NCBI GenBank assembly: GCA_015065325.1
Contig: SVQO01000008.1
Coordinates: 7,840 to 71,839, forward strand
Source: Oscillospiraceae bacterium
GTDB lineage: Bacteria > Bacillota > Clostridia > Oscillospirales > SIG627
Length of the DNA: 64,000 bases
Direction: 5' to 3'
Numbering within the stretch: position 1 is the stretch's first letter; each line of letters begins with the position of its first letter. Position numbers and translations under genes: made by a program. The notes under the pieces are model-generated. The model was not told where the DNA came from. It saw only the letters and a list, made by a program, of their open reading frames with translations, and did no database searches. Below, in pieces: positions 5,333-59,257 of the stretch.

Positions 5333-5626
5333 CCCGATCGTAGAAAGAGCGTTGGAAAATCGGTTTTCCAATTTCCCGATGATTCTCTCGACTGGAAAGA
5401 TACCGCCACACCCGACAGTATTTGCGAACGGGTAACTAAAAAGGTTAAAAACGGTTCTATAGTACTTTTCCATAACGATGCCGACCATACACCCGCCGCC
5501 CTGCCGACAATACTCAAAACCCTAAAAGAACAGGGCTATGAATTCGTATTTATCGAGGACCTAATCTACAAAGAAAACTACGAAATAATCCACGATGGAA
5601 CACAGTGTAAAAAAGACGATGCGTAA
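5333..5626 (+). pseudogene. C-terminal fragment of a NodB-type polysaccharide deacetylase
   Basis: The frame opens only after a TGA at 5330-5332 and has no start codon. It reads '..DSLDWKDTATPDSICERVTKKVKNGSIVLFHNDADHTPAALPTILKTLKEQGYEFVFIEDL..', the typical CE4 C-terminus. A small hairpin plus T-run follows the stop. Confidence 0.55.
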
Positions 5627-21205: not shown

Positions 21206-22180
21206 TTATATCACCTTCAGGACGACCTTGCCTACGTTTTCACAGCGCTGCAGGATCCCGTGGGCTTCCTCTGCCTGTTCCATAGGCAGAACCTTATAAA
21301 TGGAGGGACGGATGGCACCGCTTTCGATCTTCGGCCATACCTTTTCCACAAGCTCTGCCAGAAGGGCTGCCTTGAATGCGGGGGTACGGTTGCGCAGCAT
21401 AGAGCCTACCAGATGCAGACCCTTGGTCAAAAGGGGGCGGAGCTGAACGGTGGTTTCGATTCCCGCAAGGGTGGAGATCACGACCCAATAACCGCCGCGT
21501 GCCATATAGGGCAGGCTCTTGCCCAGGGTCTCACCGGAAAGGCAGTCCATGGAAACGGCAACGGGAGTTCCGTTTTCCTCCTCCTGCTTCAAGACCTCCT
21601 CCACTGCTTCCTTGGCGGAATTGATAATGAGGTCTGCCCCCAAAGGCCTGATCTTTTCGGCGATCTCATCGGATAGGACCGAGGTGATGACCCGTGCACC
21701 GAATGCCTTTGCCATAGGGATTGCCACGGATGCCAGACCGCTGGCACCTGCGGGGATGAAAGCGGTCTTCCCCGCTTCCAGATGACCCTCGATAAATAAA
21801 TTCAGATAAGAGGTGGCGTATGCCTCGGGGAGCGCGGAGGCCTCCTCCATCGTCAGACCCTTGGGTACGGGCATCAGCATATCCTCCTTGACCGCTACGT
21901 ATTCTGCGTAGCCGCCACCGCCCAGCAGAGCGCAGACCTTGTCGCCCGCCTGCCATTTGCTGACCCGTTCGCCGATTTCAACGATCTCTCCCGCGATCTC
22001 TAGACCCATCCATTCGGGACAGCCGGGAGGAGAGGGGTATTTTCCCTCTCTTTGCAGAAGGTCGGCGCGGTTCAGTGCGGCGGCGTGGATCCTGACGATC
22101 ACGTCCTCCTCCCCCATTTTCGGGTAGGGAACCTCACTCCAAACGAGCTTTTTATTTTCATCGATCAGCATTGCTTTCAT
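21206..22180 (-). CDS. NAD(P)H:quinone oxidoreductase-like MDR (zeta-crystallin family)
   Basis: 'VRIHAAALNRADLLQREGKYP', 'GLEIAGEIVEIG' and 'AGASGLASVAI'. Confidence 0.75.
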   Translation of the reverse strand: MKAMLIDENKKLVWSEVPYPKMGEEDVIVRIHAAALNRADLLQREGKYPSPPGCPEWMGLEIAGEIVEIGERVSKWQAGDKVCALLGGGGYAEYVAVKEDMLMPVPKGLTMEEASALPEAYATSYLNLFIEGHLEAGKTAFIPAGASGLASVAIPMAKAFGARVITSVLSDEIAEKIRPLGADLIINSAKEAVEEVLKQEEENGTPVAVSMDCLSGETLGKSLPYMARGGYWVVISTLAGIETTVQLRPLLTKGLHLVGSMLRNRTPAFKAALLAELVEKVWPKIESGAIRPSIYKVLPMEQAEEAHGILQRCENVGKVVLKVI

Positions 22181-23214
22181 TTTGCTTCCTCCTGCTTTTT
22201 GGCAAAGTATTCGTCCATTCGCTCGTTGACCCTTGCACGGATCTTATCCACACGAAGATTGTCAAGAGAGAGTTTTGCAAGCTCCATCTTCATTGCGTCG
22301 TAAAAGGGCATCAGCTCCTCCTGCTTCATACCCGTAATGGCGAGAATTTTGGAATTGTCGGTGATGCGGTCGAAGAGTCTGGCGTATTCCAGCTGCCACC
22401 GCACGAAGGGAGAGATCGCGTTCCGATCCTTGGACATGATCTGCAGATACTCCTCCTGATCCACCCACTCGTATTTCAGACCGATCAGATCCCGATAGAT
22501 CTCGGCGAGCTCACCCCATGTATGGTATTCTGCGGTGGAAGCGATGAATTTCTCTCCCAGCGCCTCCTTCTTTCCCGCAAGGCGGGCGATCATCACGCCT
22601 ACGTCTCCCGCCCAGGACATGGTGGCGGGCTTGTCCTTTGCTTGAATTGGAATCACCACCGGCTTTCCTTGAAGGGCACGGTAAACGAAGGTGCCCGCCT
22701 CCAGCGTTACAAGCTGTGCTCTGCCGGTGGAAAAGGTGGTGGCGGGGAGGATAATGGTCCAGTTTTTCTTTCCCGATTTGGTGAGAAGATCCTCCTCTGC
22801 CGCCTTGAAAAGGGAATATTCCTTTTCCACGTATTGTAAATACTCCTTGTTTTTGGAAACGTCGATGAGGCGGGGGGAGGATTCCCGAACAGGCACCTCC
22901 TCATTGGCGTACACCCGACAGCTGGAAAGGAACATATACTGATCCGTATTTTCCAAAAATAGGGGGGCGCGTACCCGAAATTGAGGCAGAGTATAGCTCA
23001 TAAAGTCCAGGATCACGTCAAAGTGCGTTTTCGTGATCTTTTCCGTCAGCCACGCATCGTCCATGGCGTTGGCAATGCTTGCCGTCAGGTGTTCGTGGGT
23101 AATTGCGGGCTCGTCCAGTGCGACTACGTCCACGGAAAAACCCAGGCGTAAAAGCTCGGGAACCGCATATCTGCCCATAGCACCCGTGCCGCCCAAAACC
23201 AAAATTTTTTTCAT
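22177..23214 (-). CDS. NAD-dependent epimerase/dehydratase-like SDR (NmrA-like)
   Basis: 'MKKILVLGGTGAMGRY' Rossmann motif. Its stop overlaps the next ATG (ATGA at 22177-22180). Confidence 0.65.
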   Translation of the reverse strand: MKKILVLGGTGAMGRYAVPELLRLGFSVDVVALDEPAITHEHLTASIANAMDDAWLTEKITKTHFDVILDFMSYTLPQFRVRAPLFLENTDQYMFLSSCRVYANEEVPVRESSPRLIDVSKNKEYLQYVEKEYSLFKAAEEDLLTKSGKKNWTIILPATTFSTGRAQLVTLEAGTFVYRALQGKPVVIPIQAKDKPATMSWAGDVGVMIARLAGKKEALGEKFIASTAEYHTWGELAEIYRDLIGLKYEWVDQEEYLQIMSKDRNAISPFVRWQLEYARLFDRITDNSKILAITGMKQEELMPFYDAMKMELAKLSLDNLRVDKIRARVNERMDEYFAKKQEEAK

Positions 23215-23229
23215 AGGGAAAGCTCCTTT

Positions 23230-24243
23230 TCAGTCAATATTTTTGCCATTGAAGCCAACCCCTCCTACGATCTCGTCAAGGACCTTTTGCACCAAAAAGT
23301 CGTGCTCGTAGGTAAAGGGGTTTTGCTTTTCGCCCAAAATGTAGGCGTGGAAATCCTGCATCATCTCGTCGTATCTTCCTCCCGCCGTATGATCCTCGAA
23401 GGGGAGGGTGACCTTGCGGTCCTCGTAGGTTTTGTCTGCAATTTCAAGGTCCGACCAGGTCATGGTAATAGGCCGCTCCAAGGGACAGATATTTGCCGTT
23501 CCAAGGCTTCCTCCCACCATAAACTGCCGTCTGCCGAAGCCGTTGACCTCCACGGAGGAAACGAAAACGCGGGCAAGAGCCTTATCGAATTCCAGAACGG
23601 CGAGATTGTTGTCCTCCAGATCCACTCCGTCCAGTCTCGTGCGGGAGACGAAGGAGCTGATCTTTTTCGGCTCACCCAAGAGATATACGATCAGATCCAC
23701 CAGATGGCTTCCGAAAATATACATACCGCCGCCGCGGAAGTTGGTCAGCCATTTTCGCGTATCCGTGGGATGCAAGGTGCTCATTTCCGCGTGAATGGAA
23801 TGAATTTCTCCGAGTTCACCCTTTTTGATCCTTTCAAAGCATTCCAGCACGGCGGGGTTGTAGCGGTACATATAGCCCAGCTGGACCACCAGATTCTTTT
23901 CCTTTGCAGTGTCGAGAAGCGCCTTGTATTCCTCCAAGGTTCCGCTTGCGGGCTTATCCATGTGGATATGCTTGCCCGCATCCACGCACATTTTGGCGTA
24001 TTTGGTCAGATCCCATACGTCGCTTTCCACCAAAACCGCGTCGGCGCCATCGATGACCTCCTTTACGCTCAGGCGTGGGAGACCCTCGTAGCCCTTCCGA
24101 TCTCCTCTTTTTTCGATCCAGCGCCGGTTTTCCTCGGCGTAGCCGATGACCTCGAACAGTTCGGGAAACTTCCTTGCTGCCTTCATTTTCGATTCGCCGT
24201 GATTGTGTCCGATGCCGATCTGTCCGATCTTGATTTTTTTCAT
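23230..24243 (-). CDS. Gfo/Idh/MocA-family oxidoreductase
   Basis: The N-terminus 'KIGQIGIGHNHG' and 'HIHMDKPAS' are typical of the family. Confidence 0.75.
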   Translation of the reverse strand: MKKIKIGQIGIGHNHGESKMKAARKFPELFEVIGYAEENRRWIEKRGDRKGYEGLPRLSVKEVIDGADAVLVESDVWDLTKYAKMCVDAGKHIHMDKPASGTLEEYKALLDTAKEKNLVVQLGYMYRYNPAVLECFERIKKGELGEIHSIHAEMSTLHPTDTRKWLTNFRGGGMYIFGSHLVDLIVYLLGEPKKISSFVSRTRLDGVDLEDNNLAVLEFDKALARVFVSSVEVNGFGRRQFMVGGSLGTANICPLERPITMTWSDLEIADKTYEDRKVTLPFEDHTAGGRYDEMMQDFHAYILGEKQNPFTYEHDFLVQKVLDEIVGGVGFNGKNID

Positions 24244-24409
24244 TCCGATCCACTCCCATCCAAGACGGCTGCAAGCTCGCTCTTATAATTTGATTATAAA
24301 GCTTTCCCCATATTCGTAAATGGAGATTGTGATAGTTTTGTCGATTTTGATACAAAATTTCTTGCAAAAATTAAATTTTTGTGCTAAAATCAAGGAGAGA
24401 GGTGATCTT

Positions 24410-25180
24410 GTGTTTGTCGATTTTACGCCTGTTCAGGTGGTTTCCGTCACCCGAAAGCTGAAATCTTCCGTGGGTGTTACGGTGCGAAACCGTCGGCGAA
24501 AGTATTGGGGGATCGCTTATAAAAAAGAAGGCGAGACCTACTATTATCAGAACGGAAAGCAATTTCTTTCCGACAAAAATCACGTGTTGCTTTTGCCCAA
24601 GGACGGAAATTACGCCTGGGAATGCAAAAAGGCGGGGGAGTGCATCCTCGTCGATTTTGAGGCGACGGGTGCCCGTGAGGAGATCCAAAGCATTTTTATC
24701 GGCGACGGAGGAGAGCTTTTGACCGCTTTTTCCAAAATGGAGCGCTGTATGAGCCCCGATAATCCTGCGGGAGAGCTGGAGGCAATGCAACAGCTGTACG
24801 GGATCTTGGTGATCCTGACGAAGGCGGAAAATAAAAAGTACGCTCCCAAGGACAAGCAACGCCGATTGGAGCCCGCTATGGACGCGATTTTGGCGCATTA
24901 CTCCGAACCCGACATCACCAACGAAAGCCTTGCCCGCCTTTGCGGGATGAGCGTGGTGTATTTTCGCAAGTGCTTTGAGTCGGTGTACGGGGTCTCGCCC
25001 ATTCGTTATCTGCACCATTTGCGGATGGATAAGGCGAAGGGAATGCTTCTGAGCGACTACGATTCCATTACCCAGATCGCCCAAAGCGTGGGCTACGGAA
25101 GTATTTATCACTTTTCCAAAATGTTTCGTGCCTACACCGGCGTAAGCCCCTCCGAATATGCAAAATCCTCCCGATCGTGA
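24410..25180 (+). CDS. AraC-family transcriptional regulator (AraC-1)
   Basis: A GTG start follows AAGGAGAGAGG. The C-terminal double HTH reads 'LARLCGMSVVYFRKCFESVYGVSPIRYLHHLRMDKAKGMLL...IAQSVGYGSIYHFSKMFRAYTGVSPSEY'. Confidence 0.8.
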   Translation: MFVDFTPVQVVSVTRKLKSSVGVTVRNRRRKYWGIAYKKEGETYYYQNGKQFLSDKNHVLLLPKDGNYAWECKKAGECILVDFEATGAREEIQSIFIGDGGELLTAFSKMERCMSPDNPAGELEAMQQLYGILVILTKAENKKYAPKDKQRRLEPAMDAILAHYSEPDITNESLARLCGMSVVYFRKCFESVYGVSPIRYLHHLRMDKAKGMLLSDYDSITQIAQSVGYGSIYHFSKMFRAYTGVSPSEYAKSSRS

Positions 25181-25195
25181 TCGGGAGGATTTTTT
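25157..25195 (+). repeat. 39-bp direct repeat, copy A (last codons of AraC-1 + its terminator hairpin)
   Basis: TATGCAAAATCCTCCCGAtcgTGATCGGGAGGATTTTTT. It matches 30870-30908 except for 3 loop bases. The stop codon sits in the hairpin loop. Confidence 0.85.
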
Positions 25196-25370
25196 CCGGT
25201 ACCATTTGAGGAAGATCCCCTATATCAAAATTTGGAGCCGAGGGATCGGAAGCACCGCAAGAGGTGCATTTCCAGTTGCTGTAATTGTGAGGGAGAGGGG
25301 CTCCTTCGGTGATTCCGCAACTGCTGCAGTTTTTTCTTTTGCAAGAGAAAAAAGGAAAAGCACCGATTTT

Positions 25371-25389
25371 TTTCGGTGCTTTGGGATGA
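25371..25389. repeat. 19-bp direct repeat, left copy (part of the original GRE-operon terminator)
   Basis: TTTCGGTGCTTTGGGATGA is identical to 26967-26985. Here it forms the right arm of the hairpin AGCACCGA-TTTTTTT-TCGGTGCT. Confidence 0.85.
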
Positions 25390-25411
25390 GGGGGAGTTGC
25401 AATGCTTTTTA

Positions 25412-26776
25412 TCATTCAATGCTCATGGTACCGTCAGCAAGATCCTTTGCTACAAACGGGATAAAGTAAAACGGTATCGTGAGCAATTTTTGTTCGGGAT
25501 TGTAACCGTAATTGTTTTTGGAAACCTTGATAGCATATTCAAATTTGTTGTGATTTGAAAACTTTTCCAGAGAATGAAGTGTTCCGCGACCTTTCTTGAC
25601 GTCCATCGGGTAAAGCTTGTTGTCTGACTCAATGATGAATTCAAGCTCAGATGATGCTTTTCCGCGCCAATAAAAGAGCTTGTGTCCTTTAGCGACCATC
25701 TCATTTGCCACAAAATTTTCAAAGAAAATACCTGATAAGGTGTTTTCTCTTTCGCCGGATATGAACGATGCCGCGTTAATTCCGCTTTGGTAAGAAAACA
25801 TACCGATATCACCAAGGAACAGACGAAAATTACTTTCATTGTCCGGCATAAGCGGCGTTGTTACGTGCTCCTTTAATTGGAAAGACTGATTGACGACATG
25901 CGCCATCATAAGCCACTGAATAGAAGTTGCAAAATCTCTTGTTTTGCTCTTTTCCTCAATTAGTCCCGGAGAGAAGTTTTTGGATTCCTTGTTTAGCTCC
26001 CGGTAAATATTTTGGAACAAGATTCTAGAACGTAAAACGGCTTCTGGGCTTGCTTGATACAACTCCATATCTGCAAGGTAATTGTCATATAAAACCTTGA
26101 GAATTTCTCTTGCTTCAAGGATATTGTTGCCGTCAATATAGGCTTCTACAGCTTCCGGCATTCCTCCTATGAGAAGATACTTATATACTTGTTCCATTGC
26201 CAATTCGTGGATCTTGCCATCCAACGGTTTTTTGCTGTCATAGGCTTTTTTTATGGCGCTGTAGAGCATCTTGTTGCTATTCATCAAAAACTCGTCTAGG
26301 GTCATGGGATAAACGGTTATTTGGTTGATCTTGCCTACAGGAAAGAGAAATTTACCGTTATCTTTAGAACCTCGCTTGTGAAGCTCTCTTTGAAGTTTGA
26401 TGCGCACCATTGAGCCGGTTGCAATCACGGGAATGTTTCTGAAATCCTGACAGAAGTATTTGAGCGAGGAAATAATATTGGGACACTCCTGTACTTCATC
26501 GAAGATCAGAAGGGTTTTTTCGTCAATCTGTTTTCCCTTGCGTAGGGAAATATATTCGATGATTTTCTCTGCATTTGCTGTTTCGGAACAGAAATTTCGG
26601 ATTTCATCTTCTTTTTTGCAATCCACATAGACGTAGTTATTTGCGTAATAGCGTTTGGCAAAGAGCTCTTGAATAAGATAGGTTTTACCAACCTGCCTTG
26701 CGCCCCAAATGATCAAAGGCTTTTTGCGTTCGTTGTTATTCCATTCTACTAATTTTTGCAATGCAATTCGTTCCAT
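25412..26776 (-). CDS. AAA+ ATPase with C-terminal DUF4143-like region (AAA_14 family)
   Basis: Walker A 'IIWGARQVGKTYL' and Walker B-like 'LLIFDEVQ'. Start at MERIAL after GGAGG. A spot count of one 60-nt line gives about 43% GC. Confidence 0.7.
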   Translation of the reverse strand: MERIALQKLVEWNNNERKKPLIIWGARQVGKTYLIQELFAKRYYANNYVYVDCKKEDEIRNFCSETANAEKIIEYISLRKGKQIDEKTLLIFDEVQECPNIISSLKYFCQDFRNIPVIATGSMVRIKLQRELHKRGSKDNGKFLFPVGKINQITVYPMTLDEFLMNSNKMLYSAIKKAYDSKKPLDGKIHELAMEQVYKYLLIGGMPEAVEAYIDGNNILEAREILKVLYDNYLADMELYQASPEAVLRSRILFQNIYRELNKESKNFSPGLIEEKSKTRDFATSIQWLMMAHVVNQSFQLKEHVTTPLMPDNESNFRLFLGDIGMFSYQSGINAASFISGERENTLSGIFFENFVANEMVAKGHKLFYWRGKASSELEFIIESDNKLYPMDVKKGRGTLHSLEKFSNHNKFEYAIKVSKNNYGYNPEQKLLTIPFYFIPFVAKDLADGTMSIE

Positions 26777-26805
26777 AAATGAACCTCCAAGCAACTTGTA
26801 TATAT

Positions 26806-26834
26806 ATTATAGAACAACTTGCACCATTTTACAA
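26806..26834 (-). promoter_or_regulatory. Sigma-A-like promoter of the ATPase cassette
   Basis: On the minus strand, TTGTAA-N17-TATAAT about 30 nt upstream of the RBS. Confidence 0.5.
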
Positions 26835-26966
26835 TAGAAAAAATGAGTTATTTGCACCTTTTTTTACTCTGTTTCATCTATTATTTGCACCTTTTGTCGA
26901 TTCGGAGCGGAAAAGCAGGTAAAACGCGCTTTTTTCGGAAACATGAAAACGTCTCATCGAGGGCGC

Positions 26967-26985
26967 TTTCGGTGCTTTGGGATGA
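26967..26985. repeat. 19-bp direct repeat, right copy (abuts the activase stop codon)
   Basis: Identical to 25371-25389. The second hairpin arm is absent here. Confidence 0.85.
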
Positions 26986-27777
26986 TCAGGAGAAAAGCGA
27001 TTGCACTCGGTTGATCTCTTCCTCGGTGGGGATTTGACGGGGCAGGGTGTTTTCCATTCCCAGTGCCTTGTACTTGGAGCCTGCCAGATCGTGATAGGGG
27101 AGGACCTTTACCTTTTCGATACAAGTAAGAGGACGGAGAAATTCTGCCAGTTTTTCCATCTGGTCGTCGTTGTGCCCGGGTACGTAGGGAATGCGGATCT
27201 CTACCTTTGCCCCCACGGAATTTAAGTAAAGAAGGTTTTCCAGAATTTGCTCGTTGCTTTGCCCCGTGCAGCGGATATGCACCTTTTCGTCAAAGGCTTT
27301 CAGATCGTATAGGAACAGGTCGGTATAGGGCAAGACCTTCGTCAAGGTTTCCCGCGGCACGAAGCCGCAGGTATCTACGGCGGTATGGATCCCCTCCTCC
27401 TTCAGCCGCTTTAAAAGCTCGGCGGCAAAGGGTGCCTGAGAAAGACATTCTCCCCCCGAAAGGGTCACACCGCCTCCGTTTTCGTAAAAGGGGCGATCCT
27501 CCAGCAAAAGGGGCATCAGCTCCTCGACGGTCATTTCCTTTCCGTAGAGGATGCGGGCTTCCCCGAGACAGTCGCGGGGGTGAAAGTCCTTGCTTTGACA
27601 GGCGCCGCAGCCGATACATTTGTTTTCGAAAAAGGCGGTCTGCTCCTCAAAGGAGATGCCCTCGGGATTGTGACACCAGATACATTTTAAGGGGCACCCC
27701 TTGAAAAAGACCGTGGTGCGGATGCCGGGGCCGTCGTGGACGGCAAAGCGCTTCAGGTCGGTAATTTTTGCTTTCAT
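26986..27777 (-). CDS. Glycyl-radical enzyme activating enzyme (radical SAM)
   Basis: 'FAVHDGPGIRTTVFFKGCPLKCIWCHNPE' (CxxxCxxC) plus a ferredoxin-like 'CIGCGACQ'. The ATG at 27777 overlaps the GRE stop (ATGA). Confidence 0.85.
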   Translation of the reverse strand: MKAKITDLKRFAVHDGPGIRTTVFFKGCPLKCIWCHNPEGISFEEQTAFFENKCIGCGACQSKDFHPRDCLGEARILYGKEMTVEELMPLLLEDRPFYENGGGVTLSGGECLSQAPFAAELLKRLKEEGIHTAVDTCGFVPRETLTKVLPYTDLFLYDLKAFDEKVHIRCTGQSNEQILENLLYLNSVGAKVEIRIPYVPGHNDDQMEKLAEFLRPLTCIEKVKVLPYHDLAGSKYKALGMENTLPRQIPTEEEINRVQSLFS

Positions 27778-30008
27778 CGGGCGATATTCTCCGCTCTCAG
27801 AATGTAGGCGTCCTGCTCCGCCTTTGACATATTGTTCCAAAGGGTGTTCCAGCCGCAGACGCGCACCTGCAGATTGCGGTACTTCTCCGGATGCTCCTGT
27901 GCGTCCCGCAGGGTTTCGGAACGGAAAACGTTGAACTGGATGGATTGTCCGCCGCCCTTTAAATAGGTGGTCAAAAGATTGTTCCAGACCGCAAAGCCTT
28001 CCTCCCCCGAAAGGGTACTGGGATGGAGCATTATGTCTAGGCAGAAGGACTCGTGGTAATTGGAGGGACAAAGCTTCAGAGCCGAGGAGATCAGCGCAGT
28101 GACGCCTTGTTTATCCATTCCCGCCACGGGGGAAGCGTTTTTGGAAAGCTCCTCTCCGCTTTTTCTTCCGTCGGGGAGGGCACCGGTCAAAGCGCCGTGT
28201 CGGATGAAGCCGCGTGCCGAATGGAGGATGGCTTTATACACACCGCCCTTTTCGTTGGGCACGTTGTTTACCTTTTGGGCGAAAAAGTCTGCCATTGCCG
28301 CCGCATAGGTGTCGGCAAGAGGGTCGCCGTTGCCGTATTTGTGGGGAGATTTTTTGATCTTTGCCCGCAAAAGCTCGCTTCCCTCCCAGTTGTTTTTCAA
28401 CACTTGGGCAAGCTCGGTCAGGGTCAGTTCCTTTTGATCGTAAACGAATTCCTTTACCGCAAGGATGCTGTCCACTGCACTGGCAAAGGAGCAGTTCAGC
28501 ATTCCGTTATTGCAGAATTTTACACCGCCGCCGTAGCCGTCCTTACCTTTTTTCAAGGCGCTTTCCACGGTTGCGGAGTACATGGTGGAGGGATTGACGA
28601 AGGCAAGGTATTTTTCCGCGTCGTTGGTGATACGGATCCCGATCTCCACAAGGTTTTCCCACTGCTTGAGAAAGGCAAAATAAAAATCCTCGAAGGTGAC
28701 AAGGCTTTCGAGCTCGCCCGTTTGCACGCCGATCTGCTTGTTTAACGCAGTGTCAAAGCCGTTGGAGAATACGTATTCCACGGCTTTTGCGGCGTTGATA
28801 TAGCCGGAGGTGGAGCATGCCTCGTTGCCGCGGACGCCCGTTTCGTAGCAACCGCGGATATCGAAATTCAGCGCTTCCTCGTAGGTGGCGCCGTATCCCA
28901 TCACCGCCTTGATCATTCCCGGCTCACAGCAGAATACAAGGCTTGCGTTTTTGCGCCGCACCATATCGAAGGCTTTTCTTAAAATGGATTCGGGCGTGTT
29001 TTCGTTGATCTTTAATTGGATCTTGGGGTTGTAGATCTCAAGGCCGTCGTAAACCTCCAGGATCAGGTGAGAAAGCGCGTTATATTTGCTGCTGCCGTCG
29101 GAATTGGTTCCGCCCAAATAAAAGGGCTGACCCCAATAGTTGCCGATGGCGGACCACTGCATCAAAAAGTAGGAGAGAAAATGTCCCAGCTCCTCCTCGG
29201 TGTATCTGCCGCTTTCCAGATCCGTCTTATAAAAGGGATAAAGCGTGCCGTCCAGACCATTGCCGAGAGAACGGACCTGATAACGGTCGATGCACTCCGA
29301 GATGATAAAGTAGAGATAGATCAGCTGGAGTGCCTCGTAGAAGGTGGTGGGAGGACCGTGGCGCAGATGCTCCAGACAGACGGTGATCTCCTTTGCTTTT
29401 TCAAAGCTTTGCTTCTCGGCAAGGGCGATCATTCGGTCGAGCAGATGCAGGATCGCCGTATATTGAAGCTCGATCCCCTCGAAAAAGGCGTCTGCTTCTT
29501 CGGTTAGGGTTCCTGCCGTCCGATGCATTTTGCGATATTTGCGGGCGCGCTCAATGATCCCCGTAAAGCCAAGCTTCATCAGGGAGTCCCAATCGGGAAC
29601 CACATGGTCGTAATCCACCCAGTACATCATAGCGCCGCAGGCGTTGACGTCCTCGGAAAGCCGTACCAGCTCGGGGTCGCGAAGCGCAAGGGATTCCTCC
29701 GCCCATTTGCTGAAGGTGACGCATTTTGCAAGACGGTCCAGGGAATACAGACCCACGAAATAATCGTGCTCGTTGAGATAGATCCGCTGGTGCTGCAAAA
29801 GGTACTCGATTGCCCGCGCCTTTGCCACGGGATGGGGAAGGTTATCCAGGGGAAGGGCTTTCAGTCCCTCCAGAAGTTCCTCGTCGTCAAGTCCGCTTTC
29901 CTCCAAATAGCCGATGCCGTGGTACGCCATTCGCTTGAAGGGATTGAATTCTTTTTCGGGATCGTGGTATTTCCGTTCCACGAAATAACGGTCCGAAGAA
30001 TGGATCAT
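27774..30008 (-). CDS. Glycyl-radical enzyme, PFL2/dehydratase-lyase clade, substrate unknown (744 aa)
   Basis: Gly-radical motif 'RVCGWN' (Gly codon 27852-27854). Cys loop 'RGCYETG' (Cys codon 28848-28850), 332 residues upstream. The ATG at 30008 follows AAAGGAG. The longer ORF-track N-terminus overlaps the divergent AraC gene. Confidence 0.8.
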   Translation of the reverse strand: MIHSSDRYFVERKYHDPEKEFNPFKRMAYHGIGYLEESGLDDEELLEGLKALPLDNLPHPVAKARAIEYLLQHQRIYLNEHDYFVGLYSLDRLAKCVTFSKWAEESLALRDPELVRLSEDVNACGAMMYWVDYDHVVPDWDSLMKLGFTGIIERARKYRKMHRTAGTLTEEADAFFEGIELQYTAILHLLDRMIALAEKQSFEKAKEITVCLEHLRHGPPTTFYEALQLIYLYFIISECIDRYQVRSLGNGLDGTLYPFYKTDLESGRYTEEELGHFLSYFLMQWSAIGNYWGQPFYLGGTNSDGSSKYNALSHLILEVYDGLEIYNPKIQLKINENTPESILRKAFDMVRRKNASLVFCCEPGMIKAVMGYGATYEEALNFDIRGCYETGVRGNEACSTSGYINAAKAVEYVFSNGFDTALNKQIGVQTGELESLVTFEDFYFAFLKQWENLVEIGIRITNDAEKYLAFVNPSTMYSATVESALKKGKDGYGGGVKFCNNGMLNCSFASAVDSILAVKEFVYDQKELTLTELAQVLKNNWEGSELLRAKIKKSPHKYGNGDPLADTYAAAMADFFAQKVNNVPNEKGGVYKAILHSARGFIRHGALTGALPDGRKSGEELSKNASPVAGMDKQGVTALISSALKLCPSNYHESFCLDIMLHPSTLSGEEGFAVWNNLLTTYLKGGGQSIQFNVFRSETLRDAQEHPEKYRNLQVRVCGWNTLWNNMSKAEQDAYILRAENIAR

Positions 30009-30122: not shown

Positions 30123-30893
30123 ATGCAGGAATTTATGAAACGGGATCTTACCGTTGAAAAAATCGAGCTTGCCTGCCTTGTGGAGGCGGGGAAGGCTGCC
30201 CCCGTTCACAAAAACAGAAAAAGCCACGGTCTTGCTTTGTTCCCCGGAGGAGAGAGGATCATTTCCTTCGAGGGGAAAAAGCTTCTCGTGGGCAAGGATA
30301 CCGTGGTATATTTCCCAAAGGGCTCCGATTATACGGTGCGCGATCGGATCCCCTTCGAATGCTACGCCATCAATTTTCAGCTGGCGGGGGACGAGGTCTT
30401 CGAGCCTTTTGCCGTTGGGGTAAAAAACGTGAACGCGGTCTTGCAAAGCTTTCGGGAAAGCCAGAGGATCTGGAGAAAAAAGAGCGTCGGCTATTCGTCG
30501 AAGATCAAAGCCGAGCTGTACAGCATCATTTATCAGCTGCAAAGCGAAAACCGGATCCCCTACGCCAAGACCTCCGTCATCGAGCCTGCTGTCCGCTATA
30601 TTCATTCCCATTACGACAAGGAGGAGATCCGTGTTTCCGACCTTGCCGAGCTTTGCGGGATCAGTCAGGTATATTTGCGCTCTCTGTTTCAAAAGCGCTT
30701 TGCCACCACTCCCGTAGGGTATATCGAGCACCTGAGAATGAGTCGCGCCGAGGAGCTCCTGAGCTCCCAGATGTACGCGGTCCGCGACGTATGCTTTCTC
30801 TCGGGCTTCCGTGATGAAAGCTACTTCTCCCGCCGTTTCAAAAAGCAGTTTGGAGTCCCTCCCGGGGACTATGCAAAATCCTCCCGAGCTTGA
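30123..30893 (+). CDS. AraC-family transcriptional regulator (AraC-2, cupin + HTH)
   Basis: 'LAELCGISQVYLRSLFQKRFATTPVGYIEHLRMSRAEELL...FLSGFRDESYFSRRFKKQFGVPPGDY'. It is divergent from the GRE. Confidence 0.8.
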   Translation: MQEFMKRDLTVEKIELACLVEAGKAAPVHKNRKSHGLALFPGGERIISFEGKKLLVGKDTVVYFPKGSDYTVRDRIPFECYAINFQLAGDEVFEPFAVGVKNVNAVLQSFRESQRIWRKKSVGYSSKIKAELYSIIYQLQSENRIPYAKTSVIEPAVRYIHSHYDKEEIRVSDLAELCGISQVYLRSLFQKRFATTPVGYIEHLRMSRAEELLSSQMYAVRDVCFLSGFRDESYFSRRFKKQFGVPPGDYAKSSRA

Positions 30894-30908
30894 TCGGGAG
30901 GATTTTTT
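30870..30908 (+). repeat. 39-bp direct repeat, copy B (last codons of AraC-2 + terminator)
   Basis: TATGCAAAATCCTCCCGAgctTGATCGGGAGGATTTTTT. See 25157-25195. Confidence 0.85.
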
Positions 30909-30911
30909 GTA

Positions 30912-31036
30912 TTATTCCGGCATGTTGGAGAGCATATTTTCGATAAAGATTCCGTAGCCGCGGGTGGGGTCGCCCACCAAAACGTGGGTCACCGCACCCA
31001 CCAGCTTGCCGTTTTGAATGATGGGGGACCCGCTCA
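30912..31036 (-). pseudogene. Displaced copy of the spoIVB 3' end (last ~41 codons + stop)
   Basis: It matches 38873-38997 over 125 bp with 5 mismatches and encodes ..[40 protein letters not shown]. No start codon, and a stop lies upstream in frame. Confidence 0.85.
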
Positions 31037-32362: not shown

Positions 32363-33232
32363 ATGCTCGTTTCAATGAAAGAAATGCTGGAAGATGCCCG
32401 TAAGAACCATTACGCCCTTCCTGCATTTGATGTTAGCAATTACGATATGATGAAAGCTGTTTTGGAAGCCTGCGAGGAGGAGCGGTCTCCGGCACTGCTT
32501 ATGGCACTGGGTGTGGATCTGCAGGGCAGAGATATGAACCTGCTGGCATCCATGATCCGCAGCGCATCGGACCATTTCAATATTCCTGTTTGCCTGCATC
32601 TGGATCACGCAACAGATTTTACCATGATCGCAAAGGCTATTGATGCAGGCTTTAGTTCCGTTATGTACGACGGCTCCGTCCTGGATTTTGCCAGCAACGC
32701 GAAAAATACCGCTCAGGTGGTAAAGCTCGCACACGCCCACGGCATCACTGTGGAAGCAGAGCTTGGCCATGTGGGTAACGGCAGTGTGGGGTCAATCAGT
32801 GAAACCGGCACGGATACCGATCCCGGCGAGAGCCTGACTGTCCCGGAGGAGGTCGCAAAATTTGTGGAGATCACCGATGTGGATGCCCTTGCGGTAGCTA
32901 TTGGTACCGCCCACGGTGTATATCAGAAGACACCCGAGCTGCGAATTGACCGGCTGGACGAGATCACAGCTGTTTGTCAAAGGCCCTTAGTGTTGCATGG
33001 CGGTAGCGGCACACCTGATGAGCAAATGCAAGAGGCCATCCGACACGGCATCACTAAGATCAACATCTATTCCGATGTGGTAGCCGCTATGAACAAGGGT
33101 CTGAAAGAAAAGCTCAACGCTATGGATAACCCCGCCACCTGGCCTTTTCTGGTGTTTGCCGATGCCCGGGAGGAGATGAAGGAAGTAGTCCGGAACAAGC
33201 TGCGTATCTTTGGCAGCGCCGACCGTCTGTAA
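32363..33232 (+). CDS. Class II ketose/fructose-bisphosphate aldolase family
   Basis: 'YALPAFDVSNYDMMKAVLEACEEERSPALL', 'HLDHA', 'EAELGHVG' and 'LVLHGGSG'. Confidence 0.8.
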   Translation: MLVSMKEMLEDARKNHYALPAFDVSNYDMMKAVLEACEEERSPALLMALGVDLQGRDMNLLASMIRSASDHFNIPVCLHLDHATDFTMIAKAIDAGFSSVMYDGSVLDFASNAKNTAQVVKLAHAHGITVEAELGHVGNGSVGSISETGTDTDPGESLTVPEEVAKFVEITDVDALAVAIGTAHGVYQKTPELRIDRLDEITAVCQRPLVLHGGSGTPDEQMQEAIRHGITKINIYSDVVAAMNKGLKEKLNAMDNPATWPFLVFADAREEMKEVVRNKLRIFGSADRL

Positions 33233-33244
33233 GGAGGAAACAGG

Positions 33245-34486
33245 ATGAAAACAAAAGCAGTTCGCCTTTATGGTGAAAATGATTTGCGTTTGGAAGAATT
33301 TGAATTGCCGGAACTGAAAAACGGCGAGATTCTCATCAAGATCATTTCCGACAGCGTTTGTATGTCTACCTACAAGACTGTGAAACAGGGCGCAAAACAT
33401 TTGCGTGTACCGGACAATGTAGCAGAAAAGCCTGTGATCATCGGCCACGAATTCTGCGCGGAAGTTGTGGAAGTTACGGATAAATGGAAAGATCAATTTC
33501 ACGTGGGAGATAAGGTGGCTATGCCTCCTGTGCTGTCCTATCTTGGCGGTATGCAGACCGTTGGTTATTCCTTCGGCGAGATCGGCGGCGTTTCTACATA
33601 TTCTATTGTTTATGAGCACATCATTGAAAACGGATATCTGATGAAGCTGGATAGTGACTGTTTCTTCAAGGGATCGCTGATCGAGCCTGCTTCCTGCGTA
33701 CTCCGGGGTTATAAGGGGAGTATGCATTTAGATACCGACGGCGTTCCTTATACAAATCTCAGATCCGGCGGCAAGGTGGCCATTCTGGCAGGCTGCGGTC
33801 CTATGGGCCTTGTAGCCATCGACCTGGCTATCCACGGCACCGTGAAGCCCTCCGTTGTGGTGGTCACCGATCTGGACGAGAATCGTCTTGCCAGAGCGGA
33901 GGAAATCTTCTGTCCTGAAAAGGCTGCACAGGACGGCATCAACCTGATCTTCAGCAATTCCACCCATGCCGATGAGCTGATTGCGCTGGCGGGCGGAGAA
34001 TTTGATGATGTGTTTGTGTATGCCCCTGTTCCGGCGGTTGTGGAACTGGGTGATGAAATTCTGGGCTTTGACGGCTGCCTAAATTTCTTTGCAGGTCCGC
34101 TGGATCAGAGGTTCAGCGCAAAGTTCAATTTCTACAATGTCCACTACAAGCAGCATCATGTGTCCGGAACCAGCGGCAGCACCATAGAGGATATGCAGGA
34201 TATTGTACGCCTGATTAGCCAGCAGAAGATTGATCCTGCGGTAATGATTACCCATATCGGCGGTATCGATGCAGCGATTGATACTACCATACATCTGCCC
34301 CAGATCCCCGGCGGCAAAAAGCTGATCTATACCCATATCAACTTGCCCCTGACTGCCATTGCTGATTTTGCTGCTTTGGGAGAAACAGATGACCGGTTCA
34401 AGGCCCTCGATACCCTTGTAAAGGAAGGTAACGGCTTGTGGAATGCAAGAGCCGAAAAATATTTCCTGGAGAATTTTGGAGGTTAA
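33245..34486 (+). CDS. Zinc-binding dehydrogenase, sorbose-1-phosphate-reductase-like MDR (413 aa)
   Basis: 'ISDSVCMSTYK', 'IGHEFCAEVVEV' and 'ILAGCGPMG'. Confidence 0.6.
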   Translation: MKTKAVRLYGENDLRLEEFELPELKNGEILIKIISDSVCMSTYKTVKQGAKHLRVPDNVAEKPVIIGHEFCAEVVEVTDKWKDQFHVGDKVAMPPVLSYLGGMQTVGYSFGEIGGVSTYSIVYEHIIENGYLMKLDSDCFFKGSLIEPASCVLRGYKGSMHLDTDGVPYTNLRSGGKVAILAGCGPMGLVAIDLAIHGTVKPSVVVVTDLDENRLARAEEIFCPEKAAQDGINLIFSNSTHADELIALAGGEFDDVFVYAPVPAVVELGDEILGFDGCLNFFAGPLDQRFSAKFNFYNVHYKQHHVSGTSGSTIEDMQDIVRLISQQKIDPAVMITHIGGIDAAIDTTIHLPQIPGGKKLIYTHINLPLTAIADFAALGETDDRFKALDTLVKEGNGLWNARAEKYFLENFGG

Positions 34487-38774: not shown

Positions 38775-38872
38775 AATGCTCACCGCGAGATAGCGGTGAG
38801 CATTTTATTTCTTGTAGGGAACGTCACAAAGGCCGTTCCCTACCTTTTCGCAGCAATTTGCTGCTGTTTTTT

Positions 38873-40045
38873 TTATTCCGGCATATTGGAGAGCATATTT
38901 TCGATAAAGATTCCGTAGCCGCGGGTGGGGTCGCCCACCAAAACGTGGGTCACCGCACCGATGAGCTTGCCGTTTTGAATGATGGGGGACCCGCTCATTC
39001 CCTGAACGATGCCGCCCGTCATTTTTAGAAGTGCGGGATCGGTAATGCGAAGGACAAAGTTTTTGCTGTCCCGATCCTTTCCGATGATTTCTTCGATTTC
39101 GATTTCGTATTCTTTCTTGCCGCTGCCGTCCAGTGTGCAGAGGATGGACGCTTTCCCGGGCTTCACTTGATTTTTCAGGCCGATGGGAATGCTTTTTCCG
39201 CCCTTGGGCGTTTTTTCATCCAGGATGCCGTAGACGCCTTGAGGAGAGTTGGAGGTCAGGACGCCTACGTTGGACTGCTCCAGACTTCCTTTCAACTCTC
39301 CCGGTGAGCCTTCGCCACCCTTGGTGATGCTTTCCACCTGTGCGTGGCAAACACTGCCCGACCCAAAGGGAAAGGGAATTCCCGTTTCCGAGTCGCAGAC
39401 GGGATGGCCGAGTCCGCCGAAGGCACCCGTTTTCGGGTCTATGAAGGTAACGGTGCCGATGCCTGCCGCACCGTCCCGTACCCAAAGCCCTGCCCGATAC
39501 CCTGCCGCGTCCGCAGACAGAGCGGGCGTCAGAGTCAGCTCCAGGGCTTCCTCGCCCCGTTCCACCGTCAGACGAATGCTTTTTCCTTCGCTTTTCGCGA
39601 TAATCTTGGAAAAGGTGGCGGCACTTTTCAGCTCCATTCCGTCAGCCTTCAGGATTACGTCTCCCTTTTTCAGACCTGCATCCTTACCCGGGGAAACGCT
39701 TTTGTCCCCCGTTTTGATGCTGTCAATGCCCGTTACCAAAAGACCGCGGGTCTCCATACGGAGGCCGAACAGATCGCCTCCGCAGAGAAGCTCCGTTTTT
39801 TCATAGTAATTTAAGGAAACCTCCTTAACGGGAATGACCCCGAAGGCGAGGACCTGTCCCTGCGCGGGAATGGCTCCGTTTTCCTCACTTTCGCAGGAAA
39901 AGCAAAGCACGCTCTCCGGCGTTTCACCGGTAAAAAGGCTTACGGTGTCGGGGTAAAGGTAGTCTCCCAGCCCGACCAGATTTAAGAATACAAAGAAAAG
40001 AATCATCACAAAGGACAAAGAAGCTTTTGCGATTTTTCTGATCAT
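38873..40045 (-). CDS. spoIVB: Stage IV sporulation protein B, S55 signalling peptidase (PDZ + peptidase)
   Basis: N-terminal TM, PDZ domain 'GLKKGDVILKADGMEL', 'GIGTVTFIDPKTGAFGGLGH' and catalytic 'GMSGSPII'. The ATG at 40045 was chosen because the upstream extension has no support. Confidence 0.8.
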   Translation of the reverse strand: MIRKIAKASLSFVMILFFVFLNLVGLGDYLYPDTVSLFTGETPESVLCFSCESEENGAIPAQGQVLAFGVIPVKEVSLNYYEKTELLCGGDLFGLRMETRGLLVTGIDSIKTGDKSVSPGKDAGLKKGDVILKADGMELKSAATFSKIIAKSEGKSIRLTVERGEEALELTLTPALSADAAGYRAGLWVRDGAAGIGTVTFIDPKTGAFGGLGHPVCDSETGIPFPFGSGSVCHAQVESITKGGEGSPGELKGSLEQSNVGVLTSNSPQGVYGILDEKTPKGGKSIPIGLKNQVKPGKASILCTLDGSGKKEYEIEIEEIIGKDRDSKNFVLRITDPALLKMTGGIVQGMSGSPIIQNGKLIGAVTHVLVGDPTRGYGIFIENMLSNMPE

Positions 40046-59193: not shown

Positions 59194-59257
59194 AGAGTTC
59201 CTTTCGATTCCGATCATTTATGAAAATTAAGGCGAAACAGATAAAAATACATAATAA

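What the first reader, a model, noticed from the sequence alone, without database searches (positions are those of the whole stretch)
25371..26985. A lone DUF4143 AAA+ ATPase cassette is inserted into the GRE-operon terminator, flanked by a 19-bp direct repeat
Seen in sequence: TTTCGGTGCTTTGGGATGA occurs at 25371-25389 and at 26967-26985. The right copy touches the activase stop codon (TCA at 26986). The left copy is the distal arm of a complete hairpin plus T-run on the minus strand, i.e. the operon's original terminator, now displaced by 1.6 kb. The 1,596 bp between them is AT-richer; my spot count of one 60-nt line gives about 43% GC. It holds one gene (Walker A GARQVGKT, DUF4143-like tail) with its own TTGTAA-N17-TATAAT promoter. 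Inference: this is a single-gene mobile cassette that landed in a terminator loop with target duplication and carries no recombinase. Orphan AAA_14/DUF4143 ATPases are widespread and functionally unassigned, so a conflict or defence role is conceivable but unproven.
Basis: partly seen in the sequence, partly recalled or inferred. Interest (0 to 1): 0.65.

Follow-up and report, generated by a model that had tools for sequence, protein, structure and literature searches.

The report
Foreign ATPase-nuclease gene splitting a terminator
One foreign gene, encoding an ATPase fused to a nuclease from a very common but untested phage-defence candidate family (PDC-S01), sits directly behind a glycyl-radical-enzyme operon and duplicates 19 bp of that operon's terminator; the feature is real, but both the gene family and this style of insertion have been described before.

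Summary
TTTCGGTGCTTTGGGATGA occurs only at 25371-25389 and 26967-26985. The right copy abuts the activase stop codon. The left copy is one arm of a strong minus-strand terminator. The 1,577 bp between the copies has 39.7% GC, against 51-53% in the flanks, and holds one gene with its own promoter.

The gene (25412-26776, minus strand) matches PADLOC PDC-S01 over its full length (E 2.8e-122). It is an Orc/Cdc6-like AAA+ ATPase fused to a PD-(D/E)XK nuclease with intact motifs. The family is abundant but has no experimental validation.

The closest relatives of the host operon (77-78% activase identity) have a terminator directly after the activase stop and no ATPase gene. That supports an insertion.

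The cassette is not a defined mobile element:
- Homologues in about eight other contexts share only three GGTGCAAAT boxes, the promoter and the ORF.
- There are no conserved ends.
- Only one other context (pyruvate kinase 3' end, 39 bp) has flanking repeats.
- Two more repeat pairs at gene 3' ends (42 and 131 bp) bracket neighbouring segments in this same window.

[quoted passage not shown] I found no empty site. The insertion mechanism and the defence function remain inferred.

The parts
26967..26985 (.). Direct-repeat copy next to the activase stop codon (TTTCGGTGCTTTGGGATGA)
   Evidence: Exact match. Abuts the stop codon TCA at 26986-26988.
25371..25389 (.). Direct-repeat copy that forms the 5' arm and loop start of the terminator
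   Evidence: Exact match. Overlaps the hairpin at 25357-25382.
25347..25382 (-). Intrinsic terminator (AAAGCACCGA-AAAAAA-TCGGTGCTTT plus TCCTTTTTTC). Inferred to be the original terminator of the GRE operon; it now ends the ATPase transcript.
   Evidence: Terminator scan. Fold energy -18.2 kcal/mol, z = -3.5. Unique in the window. Relatives have a hairpin in the same position after the activase stop.
25390..25411 (-). 22-nt 3' tail of the insert, between the ATPase stop and the repeat. Not conserved in homologous loci.
   Evidence: Sequence. Homology to other loci ends at 25407-25424.
25412..26776 (-). PDC-S01 gene: AAA+ ATPase (residues 1-155), helical region (about 160-290) and PD-(D/E)XK nuclease domain (about 295-450); 454 aa
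   Evidence: Pfam AAA_14 and DUF4143. PADLOC PDLC04786, E 2.8e-122, residues 1-443. Invariant K31, D93/E94, E353, E377 and K394 (nearly invariant) in the D/E392-V393-K394 motif. AlphaFold model with pLDDT 92. Foldseek matches.
26784..26788 (-). Ribosome-binding site GGAGG, 7 nt upstream of the ATG; conserved in all homologous loci
   Evidence: Sequence. Invariant columns in alignment A1.
26806..26834 (-). Sigma-70-type promoter TTGTAA-N17-TATAAT
   Evidence: Scan, 10 of 12 positions match. The -10 box and spacing are conserved in 8 contexts.
26819..26896 (-). Three direct repeats (A/T)AGGTGCAAAT, 33 bp apart, at -49, -82 and -115 from the ATG. The proximal one lies in the promoter spacer. Presumed operator sites.
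   Evidence: the repeat finder families D1/D2. Same positions in homologous loci from unrelated contexts. None at the 3' end.
26897..26966 (-). Non-conserved 5' segment of the insert. It holds two further terminator fragments, CCGAAAAAA (26930-26938) and TGCTTTTCC (26909-26917), in terminator order.
   Evidence: Two separate shared 9-mers occurred in 0.0001 of 20,000 shuffles. There is no homology to other ATPase loci beyond 26896.
26986..27777 (-). Glycyl-radical-enzyme activase (263 aa), the last gene of the target operon
   Evidence: Pfam Radical_SAM and Fer4_12. Gene calls in L001.
27774..30008 (-). Glycyl radical enzyme (744 aa), the first gene of the target operon
   Evidence: Pfam PFL-like and Gly_radical. 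Gene calls in L001/L007.

Best explanation
A roughly 1.58-kb piece of foreign DNA carrying one gene was inserted directly behind the glycyl-radical-enzyme (GRE) operon, inside its intrinsic terminator. The insertion duplicated at least 19 bp of target, and terminator fragments extend to about 36 bp. The DNA carries no mobility gene and has no defined element ends.

This is the pattern called 'insertion with long target duplication', described for restriction-modification genes. I take it to be produced by host recombination or repair acting on incoming DNA, not by the cassette itself. That step is inferred.

The gene encodes a PDC-S01 protein: an Orc/Cdc6-like AAA+ ATPase fused to a restriction-endonuclease-like (PD-(D/E)XK) domain. 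I infer that it assembles on DNA in an ATP-dependent way and cuts nucleic acid, as McrBC does, and that it acts against phages or other invading DNA.

The gene has its own promoter, overlapped by three 33-bp-phased GGTGCAAAT boxes (presumed operators). The activase-proximal repeat copy has lost the second hairpin arm and the T-run, so the gene is probably also transcribed by read-through from the GRE operon. The displaced terminator now ends both transcripts.
For: Shown:
- An exact 19-bp repeat, unique in the window and absent as a repeat from reference genomes.
- Foreign composition.
- The nearest relatives have activase, then a hairpin terminator, then DeoR, with no ATPase.
- The rebuilt empty site restores a stop codon followed by hairpin and T-run.
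- There is no terminator-like site between the activase and the ATPase gene. The region there folds only weakly, z = -1.7.
- PADLOC PDC-S01 match at E 2.8e-122.
- Walker A/B and nuclease motifs are invariant among 44 diverse relatives.
- The full-length model (pLDDT 92) matches archaeal AAA+ proteins 2fna and 2qen and Orc/Cdc6.
- The top matches of the C-terminal domain model are mostly PD-(D/E)XK nucleases such as McrC, Can2/Card1 and NucS.
- dN/dS is 0.02-0.045, so the gene is under selection.
- The boxes, promoter and RBS are conserved in position in eight contexts.
- The gene sits in unrelated neighbourhoods, with gene GC of 36-40% whatever the host GC (33-53%).
- A second case has 39-bp flanking repeats at the pyruvate kinase stop codon.
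- Two further repeat pairs at gene 3' ends lie in this window.

From the literature: restriction-modification units inserted with 46-400-bp target duplications, unique in the genome, often spanning stop codons, with deviant GC and no mobility genes (PMC2853133).
Against: - No empty site was found. Every contig of this species has the cassette and is clonal here. Insertion is therefore inferred from relatives that are only 77-78% identical.
- 19 bp is below the 30-bp cut-off used to define long target duplication (PMC2853133).
- Flanking repeats are absent in 7 of the 8 other contexts of close homologues and in 3 of 3 distant ones.
- No PDC-S01 protein has been shown to defend against phage (PMC12988326; bioRxiv 10.1101/2024.01.29.577857).
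- dN/dS of about 0.03 with saturated dS is unusually conservative for a defence gene.
- The matches of the nuclease domain to solved structures are weak (E 0.02 or worse).
- Operator function of the boxes and read-through transcription are untested.
Confidence: 0.6

Rival explanations
1. The cassette is a cis-mobilisable element without a recombinase, like a CIME or IMEX. The 19-mer would be the shared core of attL and attR, and an integrase encoded elsewhere would move a circular form in and out of gene 3' ends.
For: Direct repeats at the 3' ends of genes are typical of integrase targets. The L021 repeat (39 bp, 3 mismatches) keeps the coding sense of the pyruvate kinase C-terminus in both copies and ends at the stop codon, as expected if an element carries a replacement 3' end. 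Repeat-flanked segments also lie side by side in the window.
Against: The repeats of two cassettes about 80% identical in DNA are unrelated in sequence. The DNA between repeat and gene, where arm sites would lie, is not conserved and is only 12-73 nt long on the 5' side. No integrase family was found among the window ORFs tested. Most contexts have no repeats.
Confidence: 0.12
2. The gene moves itself. The ATPase-nuclease would cut near stop codons or terminators with a wide stagger and insert its own gene, so PDC-S01 would be a one-gene transposable element.
For: The protein joins an AAA+ ATPase to a restriction-like nuclease. Both activities occur in transposition systems such as Tn7 TnsC/TnsA (from general knowledge). 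The gene lies in many unrelated sites. The PADLOC models were built from genes found embedded inside other operons (bioRxiv 10.1101/2024.01.29.577857). Two insertions show 19-39-bp target repeats at stop codons. COG1373 is listed among genes shared across gut genera (PMC10782964).
Against: There are no conserved ends and no 3' recognition site. The boxes occur only at the promoter. There is one copy in the window. Repeats are missing in most contexts. Similar repeat-bounded segments in this window carry ordinary metabolic genes. dS is saturated between copies, so there is no sign of recent bursts.
Confidence: 0.08
3. The gene is an old resident of this lineage. The repeat would come from local duplication or gene conversion of terminator sequence, and the relatives simply lost the gene or never had this arrangement.
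For: dS between this copy and all others is saturated, and GC3 (0.45) is higher than in homologues (0.36-0.40), which suggests a long residence. The relatives also lack the neighbouring four-gene block, so the locus differs in more than the cassette. The ATPase-pyruvate kinase linkage in L021/L044 is old.
Against: GC3 is still 10-22 points below that of neighbouring genes. The repeat copies are 19/19 identical and bracket the foreign DNA exactly. Rebuilding the site yields a canonical terminator placed as in relatives.
Confidence: 0.1

Closest known systems
PADLOC phage-defence candidate PDC-S01 (COG1373; Pfam AAA_14 + DUF4143)
   Same: Full-length HMM match (E 2.8e-122), single gene, ATPase fused to a PD-(D/E)XK domain. 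The family is reported as the most frequent individual defence locus in rumen genomes and the fourth most common system across prokaryotes (PMC13356809, PMC12988326).
   Different: The family was nominated because members sit inside BREX, DISARM or type I RM operons. This copy is attached to a metabolic operon, with no defence gene within 10 kb. The family has no experimental validation.
Insertion with long target duplication of restriction-modification genes (Nobusato et al. 2000, as cited in Furuta et al.; Furuta et al. 2010, PMC2853133)
   Same: A nuclease-encoding, defence-type unit with deviant GC and no mobility gene, flanked by a direct repeat of unique target sequence that touches a stop codon.
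   Different: The repeat here is 19 bp exact, with fragments to about 36 bp. That is below their 30-bp threshold and far below the 46-400 bp they list. The cargo is a one-gene PDC-S01, not an RM system. No empty-site genome was available, which their definition requires.
McrBC-type NTP-dependent restriction (AAA+ motor plus PD-(D/E)XK nuclease)
   Same: Same pairing of an AAA+ NTPase with a restriction-endonuclease-like domain. McrC is among the best structural matches of the C-terminal domain.
   Different: Here the two parts are fused in one 454-aa chain. The ATPase is closest to the Orc/Cdc6 and archaeal PF01637 type, not to McrB. There is no evidence for recognition of modified DNA.
Recombinase-less, repeat-flanked cassettes (CIMEs derived from ICEs; XerCD-dependent IMEX and pdif modules) - comparison from general knowledge
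   Same: Small cargo flanked by direct repeats, with no recombinase of its own, located at a gene 3' end.
   Different: Those elements share a conserved att or dif core within a family. Here the repeats of related cassettes are unrelated target sequences, and most copies have none.
Archaeal AAA+ ATPases SSO1545 (2fna) and PAB2304 (2qen), and Orc1/Cdc6
   Same: Best structural matches of the full-length model (E 3e-8). There is also a weak Pfam ATPase_2 match.
   Different: Sequence identity is 15-16%. None of these was among the matches to the C-terminal domain when it was searched on its own. Their functions are unknown or lie in replication initiation.

Membership tests
PADLOC PDC-S01 | Significant full-length match to a PDC-S01 profile HMM | tested here: met
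   PDLC04786: E 2.8e-122, residues 1-443 on profile positions 3-433 of 439. Two more PDC-S01 models match at E 1e-88 and 1e-85.
PADLOC PDC-S01 | Single-gene system, with no obligatory partner gene | tested here: met
   The insert holds one ORF. Homologues in eight contexts share no neighbour.
PADLOC PDC-S01 | Protection against phage | not testable with these tools
   The literature says the PDC systems are untested candidates (bioRxiv 10.1101/2024.01.29.577857; PMC12988326).
AAA_14 / DUF4143 ATPase-nuclease (COG1373) | Pfam AAA_14 and DUF4143 above gathering score; Walker A and Walker B present | tested here: met
   86.1 and 66.8 bits against cut-offs of 27 and 28.1. G25, G30, K31, D93 and E94 are invariant in 44 sequences.
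PD-(D/E)XK nuclease superfamily | Alpha-beta-beta-beta-alpha-beta core with E...(D/E)...(D/E)xK catalytic residues | tested here: met
   Model elements: H349-362, E367-371, E380-384, E387-393, H401-409, E415-419. E353 and E377 are invariant and K394 nearly invariant (at least 90%) in D/E392-V393-K394. DUF4143 is listed as a PD-(D/E)XK family (PMC3424549). Structural matches to McrC, Can2, Card1 and NucS are weak, E 0.02-0.13.
Insertion with long target duplication (Furuta et al. 2010) | Direct repeat of target sequence flanking the insert and unique in the genome | tested here: met
   Two copies only in 64 kb. No related hit in 185,579 genomes. The whole genome of this organism was not available.
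Insertion with long target duplication (Furuta et al. 2010) | Repeat longer than 30 bp | tested here: not met
   19 bp exact. Only two further 9-mers extend the similarity to about 36 bp.
Insertion with long target duplication (Furuta et al. 2010) | A related genome with the empty site, in which the repeat occurs once | tested here: inconclusive
   The empty-site pattern was not found in JGI metagenomes. All contigs of the species are occupied. Relatives at 77-78% identity lack the gene, but their terminator sequence is not alignable.
Insertion with long target duplication (Furuta et al. 2010) | No mobility gene in or beside the insert | tested here: met
   No integrase or transposase family among the window ORFs scanned or in the gene calls within 10 kb on either side.
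Insertion sequence / DNA transposon | Transposase gene and conserved terminal (inverted) repeats | tested here: not met
   Pfam finds only AAA_14 and DUF4143. Homology among copies ends at the distal box and the stop codon, with no terminal repeats.
Integrase-dependent integrative element (attL/attR) | An att core shared by related elements, plus an integrase in cis or a known one in trans | tested here: not met
   The repeats of the window and L021 cassettes are unrelated. No integrase was found.
Rho-independent terminator | GC-rich hairpin followed by a T-run directly downstream of a gene | tested here: met
   10-bp stem with 5 GC pairs, 6-nt loop, tail TCCTTTTTTC. z = -3.5.

The most novel reading that the evidence does not exclude
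PDC-S01 genes may not be passive cargo. They could themselves cause this kind of insertion: the AAA+/PD-(D/E)XK protein would nick widely spaced positions at stop codons or terminator hairpins and so install its own gene with a 19-40-bp target duplication. One of the most common 'defence candidates' in prokaryotes would then be a one-gene selfish mobile element. Its 'embedding' in other operons would be a footprint of that mobility, not evidence of immunity.
Probability: 0.08. Interest if true: 0.8.

Novelty: new member of a known kind. Interest (0 to 1): 0.36.

Why it matters
PDC-S01 is counted among the most abundant defence systems in prokaryotes, yet nobody knows what it does or how it spreads. 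This locus gives a clean anatomy:
- a compact, conserved unit (three phased boxes, promoter, ORF);
- a rare insertion scar, from which the pre-insertion site can be rebuilt;
- an expression design that couples the gene to a metabolic operon by loss of the operon's terminator.

The scar extends 'insertion with long target duplication', known mostly from restriction-modification genes, to a different nuclease family and to gut or rumen Clostridia. Very strong purifying selection (dN/dS about 0.03) together with placement in non-defence neighbourhoods is also a caution against reading every PADLOC PDC-S01 hit as immunity.

Tried and rejected
- **Chance repeat:** rejected.
- **Frequent genomic repeat:** the 19-mer gave only 8 single hits in the reference genomes; the two I inspected lie inside unrelated coding sequence. 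The full hairpin is unique in the window.
- **Empty site:** an exact 28-nt empty-junction pattern found nothing in JGI metagenomes.
- **Exact-protein look-ups:** the ATPase and the activase returned only the same clonal context.
- **Viral contigs, phage records and plasmid records:** no close relatives, identity 33% or less. There was no PHROG match and no PDB sequence match.
- **Second copy or box-like motif elsewhere in the window:** none. The exact box match at 14580 lies inside a coding region.
- **Terminal or 3' copies of the GGTGCAAAT box, as possible element ends:** none.
- **Flanking repeats as a general hallmark:** absent in L024/25, L028-30, L036, L044, L047 and L048, and around two distant homologues (plus one unrelated ATP-binding gene) on a Segatella copri plasmid.
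- **'High protein identity means recent transfer':** I first read the more than 120 clusters at 87-90% identity this way and then withdrew it, because dS is saturated and dN/dS is about 0.03.
- **Short contigs as a sign of repeats:** not used, because the collection's median contig length is about 1 kb.
Full report
**1. The observation**

The 19-mer TTTCGGTGCTTTGGGATGA occurs at 25371-25389 and 26967-26985 and nowhere else in the window, even with three mismatches allowed. A local alignment of the 500 bp upstream and downstream of the gene scores 38, against at most 27 in 100 shuffles.

The right copy abuts the stop codon of a radical-SAM activase (26986-27777, minus strand). The left copy overlaps a minus-strand intrinsic terminator at 25382..25357 with a 10-bp stem, a 6-nt loop and a T-rich tail. 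Its fold has z = -3.5, and the hairpin is unique in the window.

The 1,577 bp between the copies have 39.7% GC, against 51-53.5% in the flanks. GC3 is 0.45 for the gene, against 0.55-0.675 for ten neighbouring genes.

The insert holds one gene, 25412-26776 on the minus strand, 454 aa. It has an RBS and a TTGTAA-N17-TATAAT promoter.

A scan of one genome per species (185,579 genomes) found eight single hits to the 19-mer. I inspected two, and both lie inside unrelated coding sequence; about four hits are expected by chance. The repeat is therefore real and not a dispersed repeat.

**2. The gene**

Pfam gives AAA_14 and DUF4143 above threshold. PADLOC gives a full-length match to candidate system PDC-S01, E 2.8e-122. 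There is no PHROG match, no useful NCBIfam match and no PDB sequence match.

A HMMER search of 1.84 billion cluster representatives finds 7,026 relatives at E up to 0.001. In an alignment of 44 diverse members, several residues are invariant:
- Walker A: G25, G30, K31.
- Walker B: D93, E94.
- Nuclease motif: E353 and E377, with K394 nearly invariant (at least 90%) in D/E392-V393-K394.

The AlphaFold model (pLDDT 92) shows an N-terminal AAA+ domain, a helical region and a C-terminal alpha-beta-beta-beta-alpha-beta domain. The full-length model is closest to the archaeal AAA+ proteins 2fna and 2qen, then to Orc/Cdc6, MalT and NLR proteins.

The C-terminal domain, modelled alone (pLDDT 89), matches mostly restriction-endonuclease-fold proteins such as McrC, Can2, Card1 and NucS. 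These matches are weak, E 0.02 or worse. DUF4143 is catalogued as a PD-(D/E)XK family (PMC3424549).

PDC-S01 comes from a 'guilt-by-embedding' screen that yielded 145 untested candidates (bioRxiv 10.1101/2024.01.29.577857). It is reported as the fourth most common system in prokaryotes and the most frequent individual locus in rumen genomes (PMC12988326, PMC13356809). It has not been validated.

**3. Is it an insertion?**

The exact ATPase and the exact activase each occur on 22-23 metagenome contigs. All have the same arrangement and both 19-mers. These contigs are clonal around the cassette, and the empty-junction pattern was not found. No empty site is therefore available.

The nearest activase relatives are only 77-78% identical. 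Their loci read AraC, GRE, activase, a hairpin terminator starting 1-8 nt after the stop, then DeoR on the opposite strand, with no ATPase. Removing the insert and one repeat copy from the window gives TGA-TCATCCCAAAGCACCGAAAAAAATCGGTGCTTTTCCTTTTTT. That has the same architecture.

The relatives also lack the adjacent four-gene block (AraC, GFO/IDH/MocA, epimerase-like, ADH), so the loci differ in more than the cassette.

**4. Is it a mobile cassette with defined ends?**

Homologues of the ATPase are very numerous. More than 120 clusters at 87-90% identity come from MAGs labelled Lachnospiraceae, Acutalibacteraceae and Clostridia.

I fetched eight further contexts. The gene lies beside pyruvate kinase, beside a Fic/HTH island, between housekeeping genes, next to an MmeI-like RM gene, and so on. 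Gene GC stays at 36-40% whatever the host GC, which ranges from 33 to 53%.

DNA homology to the window is 77-81%. It always runs from window 26859-26896 to 25407-25424. That span is three boxes (A/T)AGGTGCAAAT at -115, -82 and -49 from the ATG, the promoter, the RBS and the ORF.

Nothing beyond that span is conserved, and there are no terminal repeats. The 70 nt and 22 nt at the two ends of the window's insert are private to it.

Identical proteins also occur with one flank shared and the other different (L020 against L021, L024 against L025). These loci are therefore recombination breakpoints.

dN/dS between copies is 0.02-0.045 and dS is mostly saturated. The gene is under strong constraint, and the high protein identity does not by itself show recent transfer.

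**5. The flanking repeats**

Among the other contexts, only L021 has a significant flanking repeat. It is 39 bp with three mismatches, covers the last 13 codons of pyruvate kinase, and ends at the stop codon. L044, a related genome that is 87% identical across the gene, the spacer and pyruvate kinase, lacks the second copy. Seven close contexts and three genes tested on a Segatella copri plasmid (two distant homologues and one unrelated ATP-binding gene) have none.

In the window, the junction is more complex than a clean duplication. The 73 nt inside the activase-proximal copy contain CCGAAAAAA and TGCTTTTCC, two more pieces of the terminator in the right order. That result occurred in 0.0001 of shuffles.

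The same window has two further direct-repeat pairs at gene 3' ends:
- 42 bp at 93% identity, at 25154-25195 and 30867-30908. This is the last codons plus terminator hairpin of two AraC genes that are otherwise 30% identical. The pair brackets the whole GRE module.
- 131 bp at 95% identity, at 30906-31036 and 38867-38997. This is the 3' end of spoIVB starting from its stop codon. The pair brackets a 7.8-kb sugar-utilisation segment of lower GC.

No integrase or transposase family was found among the window ORFs scanned.

**6. Interpretation**

The pattern has four elements: a nuclease-type unit of deviant GC, no mobility gene, no defined ends, and a direct repeat of unique target sequence that touches a stop codon. 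This matches 'insertion with long target duplication' described for restriction-modification systems. There the repeats are 46-400 bp, are unique in the genome and often span start or stop codons (PMC2853133).

The window's repeat is shorter than the 30-bp threshold used in that work, and the defining empty-site comparison could not be made. I therefore say that it works like that class and do not claim membership.

Because similar scars bracket ordinary metabolic cargo next door, I attribute the insertion to a host-level recombination or repair process. I hold that view at about 0.6. The rivals are trans-mobilisation by an integrase (0.12), an old resident gene (0.10) and self-mobility of the ATPase-nuclease (0.08).

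**7. Consequences for expression (inferred)**

The activase-proximal repeat copy keeps only the first hairpin arm. No terminator-like site lies between the activase and the ATPase gene, and the region folds only weakly and lacks a T-run. GRE-operon transcripts should therefore read into the ATPase gene and stop at the displaced terminator.

The gene's own promoter has one GGTGCAAAT box in its spacer and two more upstream at 33-bp (three-turn) spacing. That suggests repression, possibly by the protein's own helical or winged-helix region.

**8. Function (inferred)**

By analogy with McrBC and other NTPase-nuclease defence proteins, I expect ATP-dependent assembly on DNA followed by cleavage by the PD-(D/E)XK domain.

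Points in favour of a defence role:
- the PADLOC match;
- a homologue next to an MmeI-like RM gene;
- distant homologues on a Segatella copri replicon rich in DUF262, WYL and IS genes.

Points against:
- no experimental validation;
- very low dN/dS;
- frequent non-defence neighbourhoods.

**9. Verdict**

The gene belongs to a known candidate family, and the insertion style resembles a known but poorly understood class. The locus is a good specimen, not a new kind of system.

Noticed in passing
window 30906-31036 and 38867-38997: A 131-bp direct repeat, 95% identical. Copy B is the 3' end of spoIVB (38873-40045, minus strand), starting at its stop codon. Copy A is an orphan fragment, called as a 41-aa Peptidase_S55 ORF. 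The 7.8 kb between them (SorC-type regulator, aldolase, ADH, a 359-aa ORF, GH95, AraC) has lower GC (0.38-0.53). It looks like a second, larger insertion with target duplication.
   Followed up: partly
window 25154-25195 and 30867-30908: A 42-bp direct repeat, 93% identical. It covers the last 8 codons (..YAKSSR), the stop codon and the terminator hairpin of two AraC-family genes that are only 30% identical overall. The pair brackets the whole AraC-GRE-activase-ATPase segment. The ortholog in L039 has a different hairpin sequence at the same place. This could be an insertion scar or gene conversion.
   Followed up: partly
window 21206-25180: A four-gene block (AraC, GFO/IDH/MocA oxidoreductase, NmrA/epimerase-like, zinc ADH) lies between the cassette and the DeoR gene. 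It is absent from the nearest relatives (L039-L043), where the activase is followed directly by DeoR.
   Followed up: no
L021 3829-3867 and 5620-5658: A homologous ATPase gene is flanked by a 39-bp direct repeat with 3 mismatches, all silent. The repeat is the last 13 codons of pyruvate kinase and ends at the stop codon. L044 shares the ATPase-pyruvate kinase junction at 87% identity but lacks the second copy.
   Followed up: yes
ATPase genes of the window, L021, L024, L028, L036, L044, L047 and L048: dN/dS is 0.02-0.045 with saturated dS; the unsaturated pair L021/L044 gives dN 0.011 and dS 0.278. This is much stronger purifying selection than is usual for defence genes. The upstream boxes are also conserved in position.
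   Followed up: partly
L020 against L021 (break at 5549); L024 against L025 (break at 3959): Contigs that encode the identical ATPase share one flank and differ completely in the other. The breakpoints lie 184 bp after the stop codon and 42 bp before the ATG, the latter inside the box region. The gene therefore sits at synteny breakpoints.
   Followed up: partly
L002, corresponding to window 32500-34476: A contig that is identical to the window over 17 kb becomes about 18% divergent across the aldolase/ADH genes. This looks like a recombined segment in an otherwise clonal population.
   Followed up: no
window 49232-54130 and 54340-59217 (minus strand): Two adjacent ORFs of 1,632 and 1,625 aa with no Pfam match at E up to 0.01.
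   Followed up: no
L048 4409-7063; L049 (Segatella copri plasmid NZ_CP085933.1, 1-50000): A 90%-identical homologue lies 46 bp upstream of an MmeI/Eco57I-like RM gene. Three distant homologues lie on one S. copri replicon among DUF262, WYL, TnpB and IS genes. These are defence-island-like settings, unlike the one in the window.
   Followed up: partly
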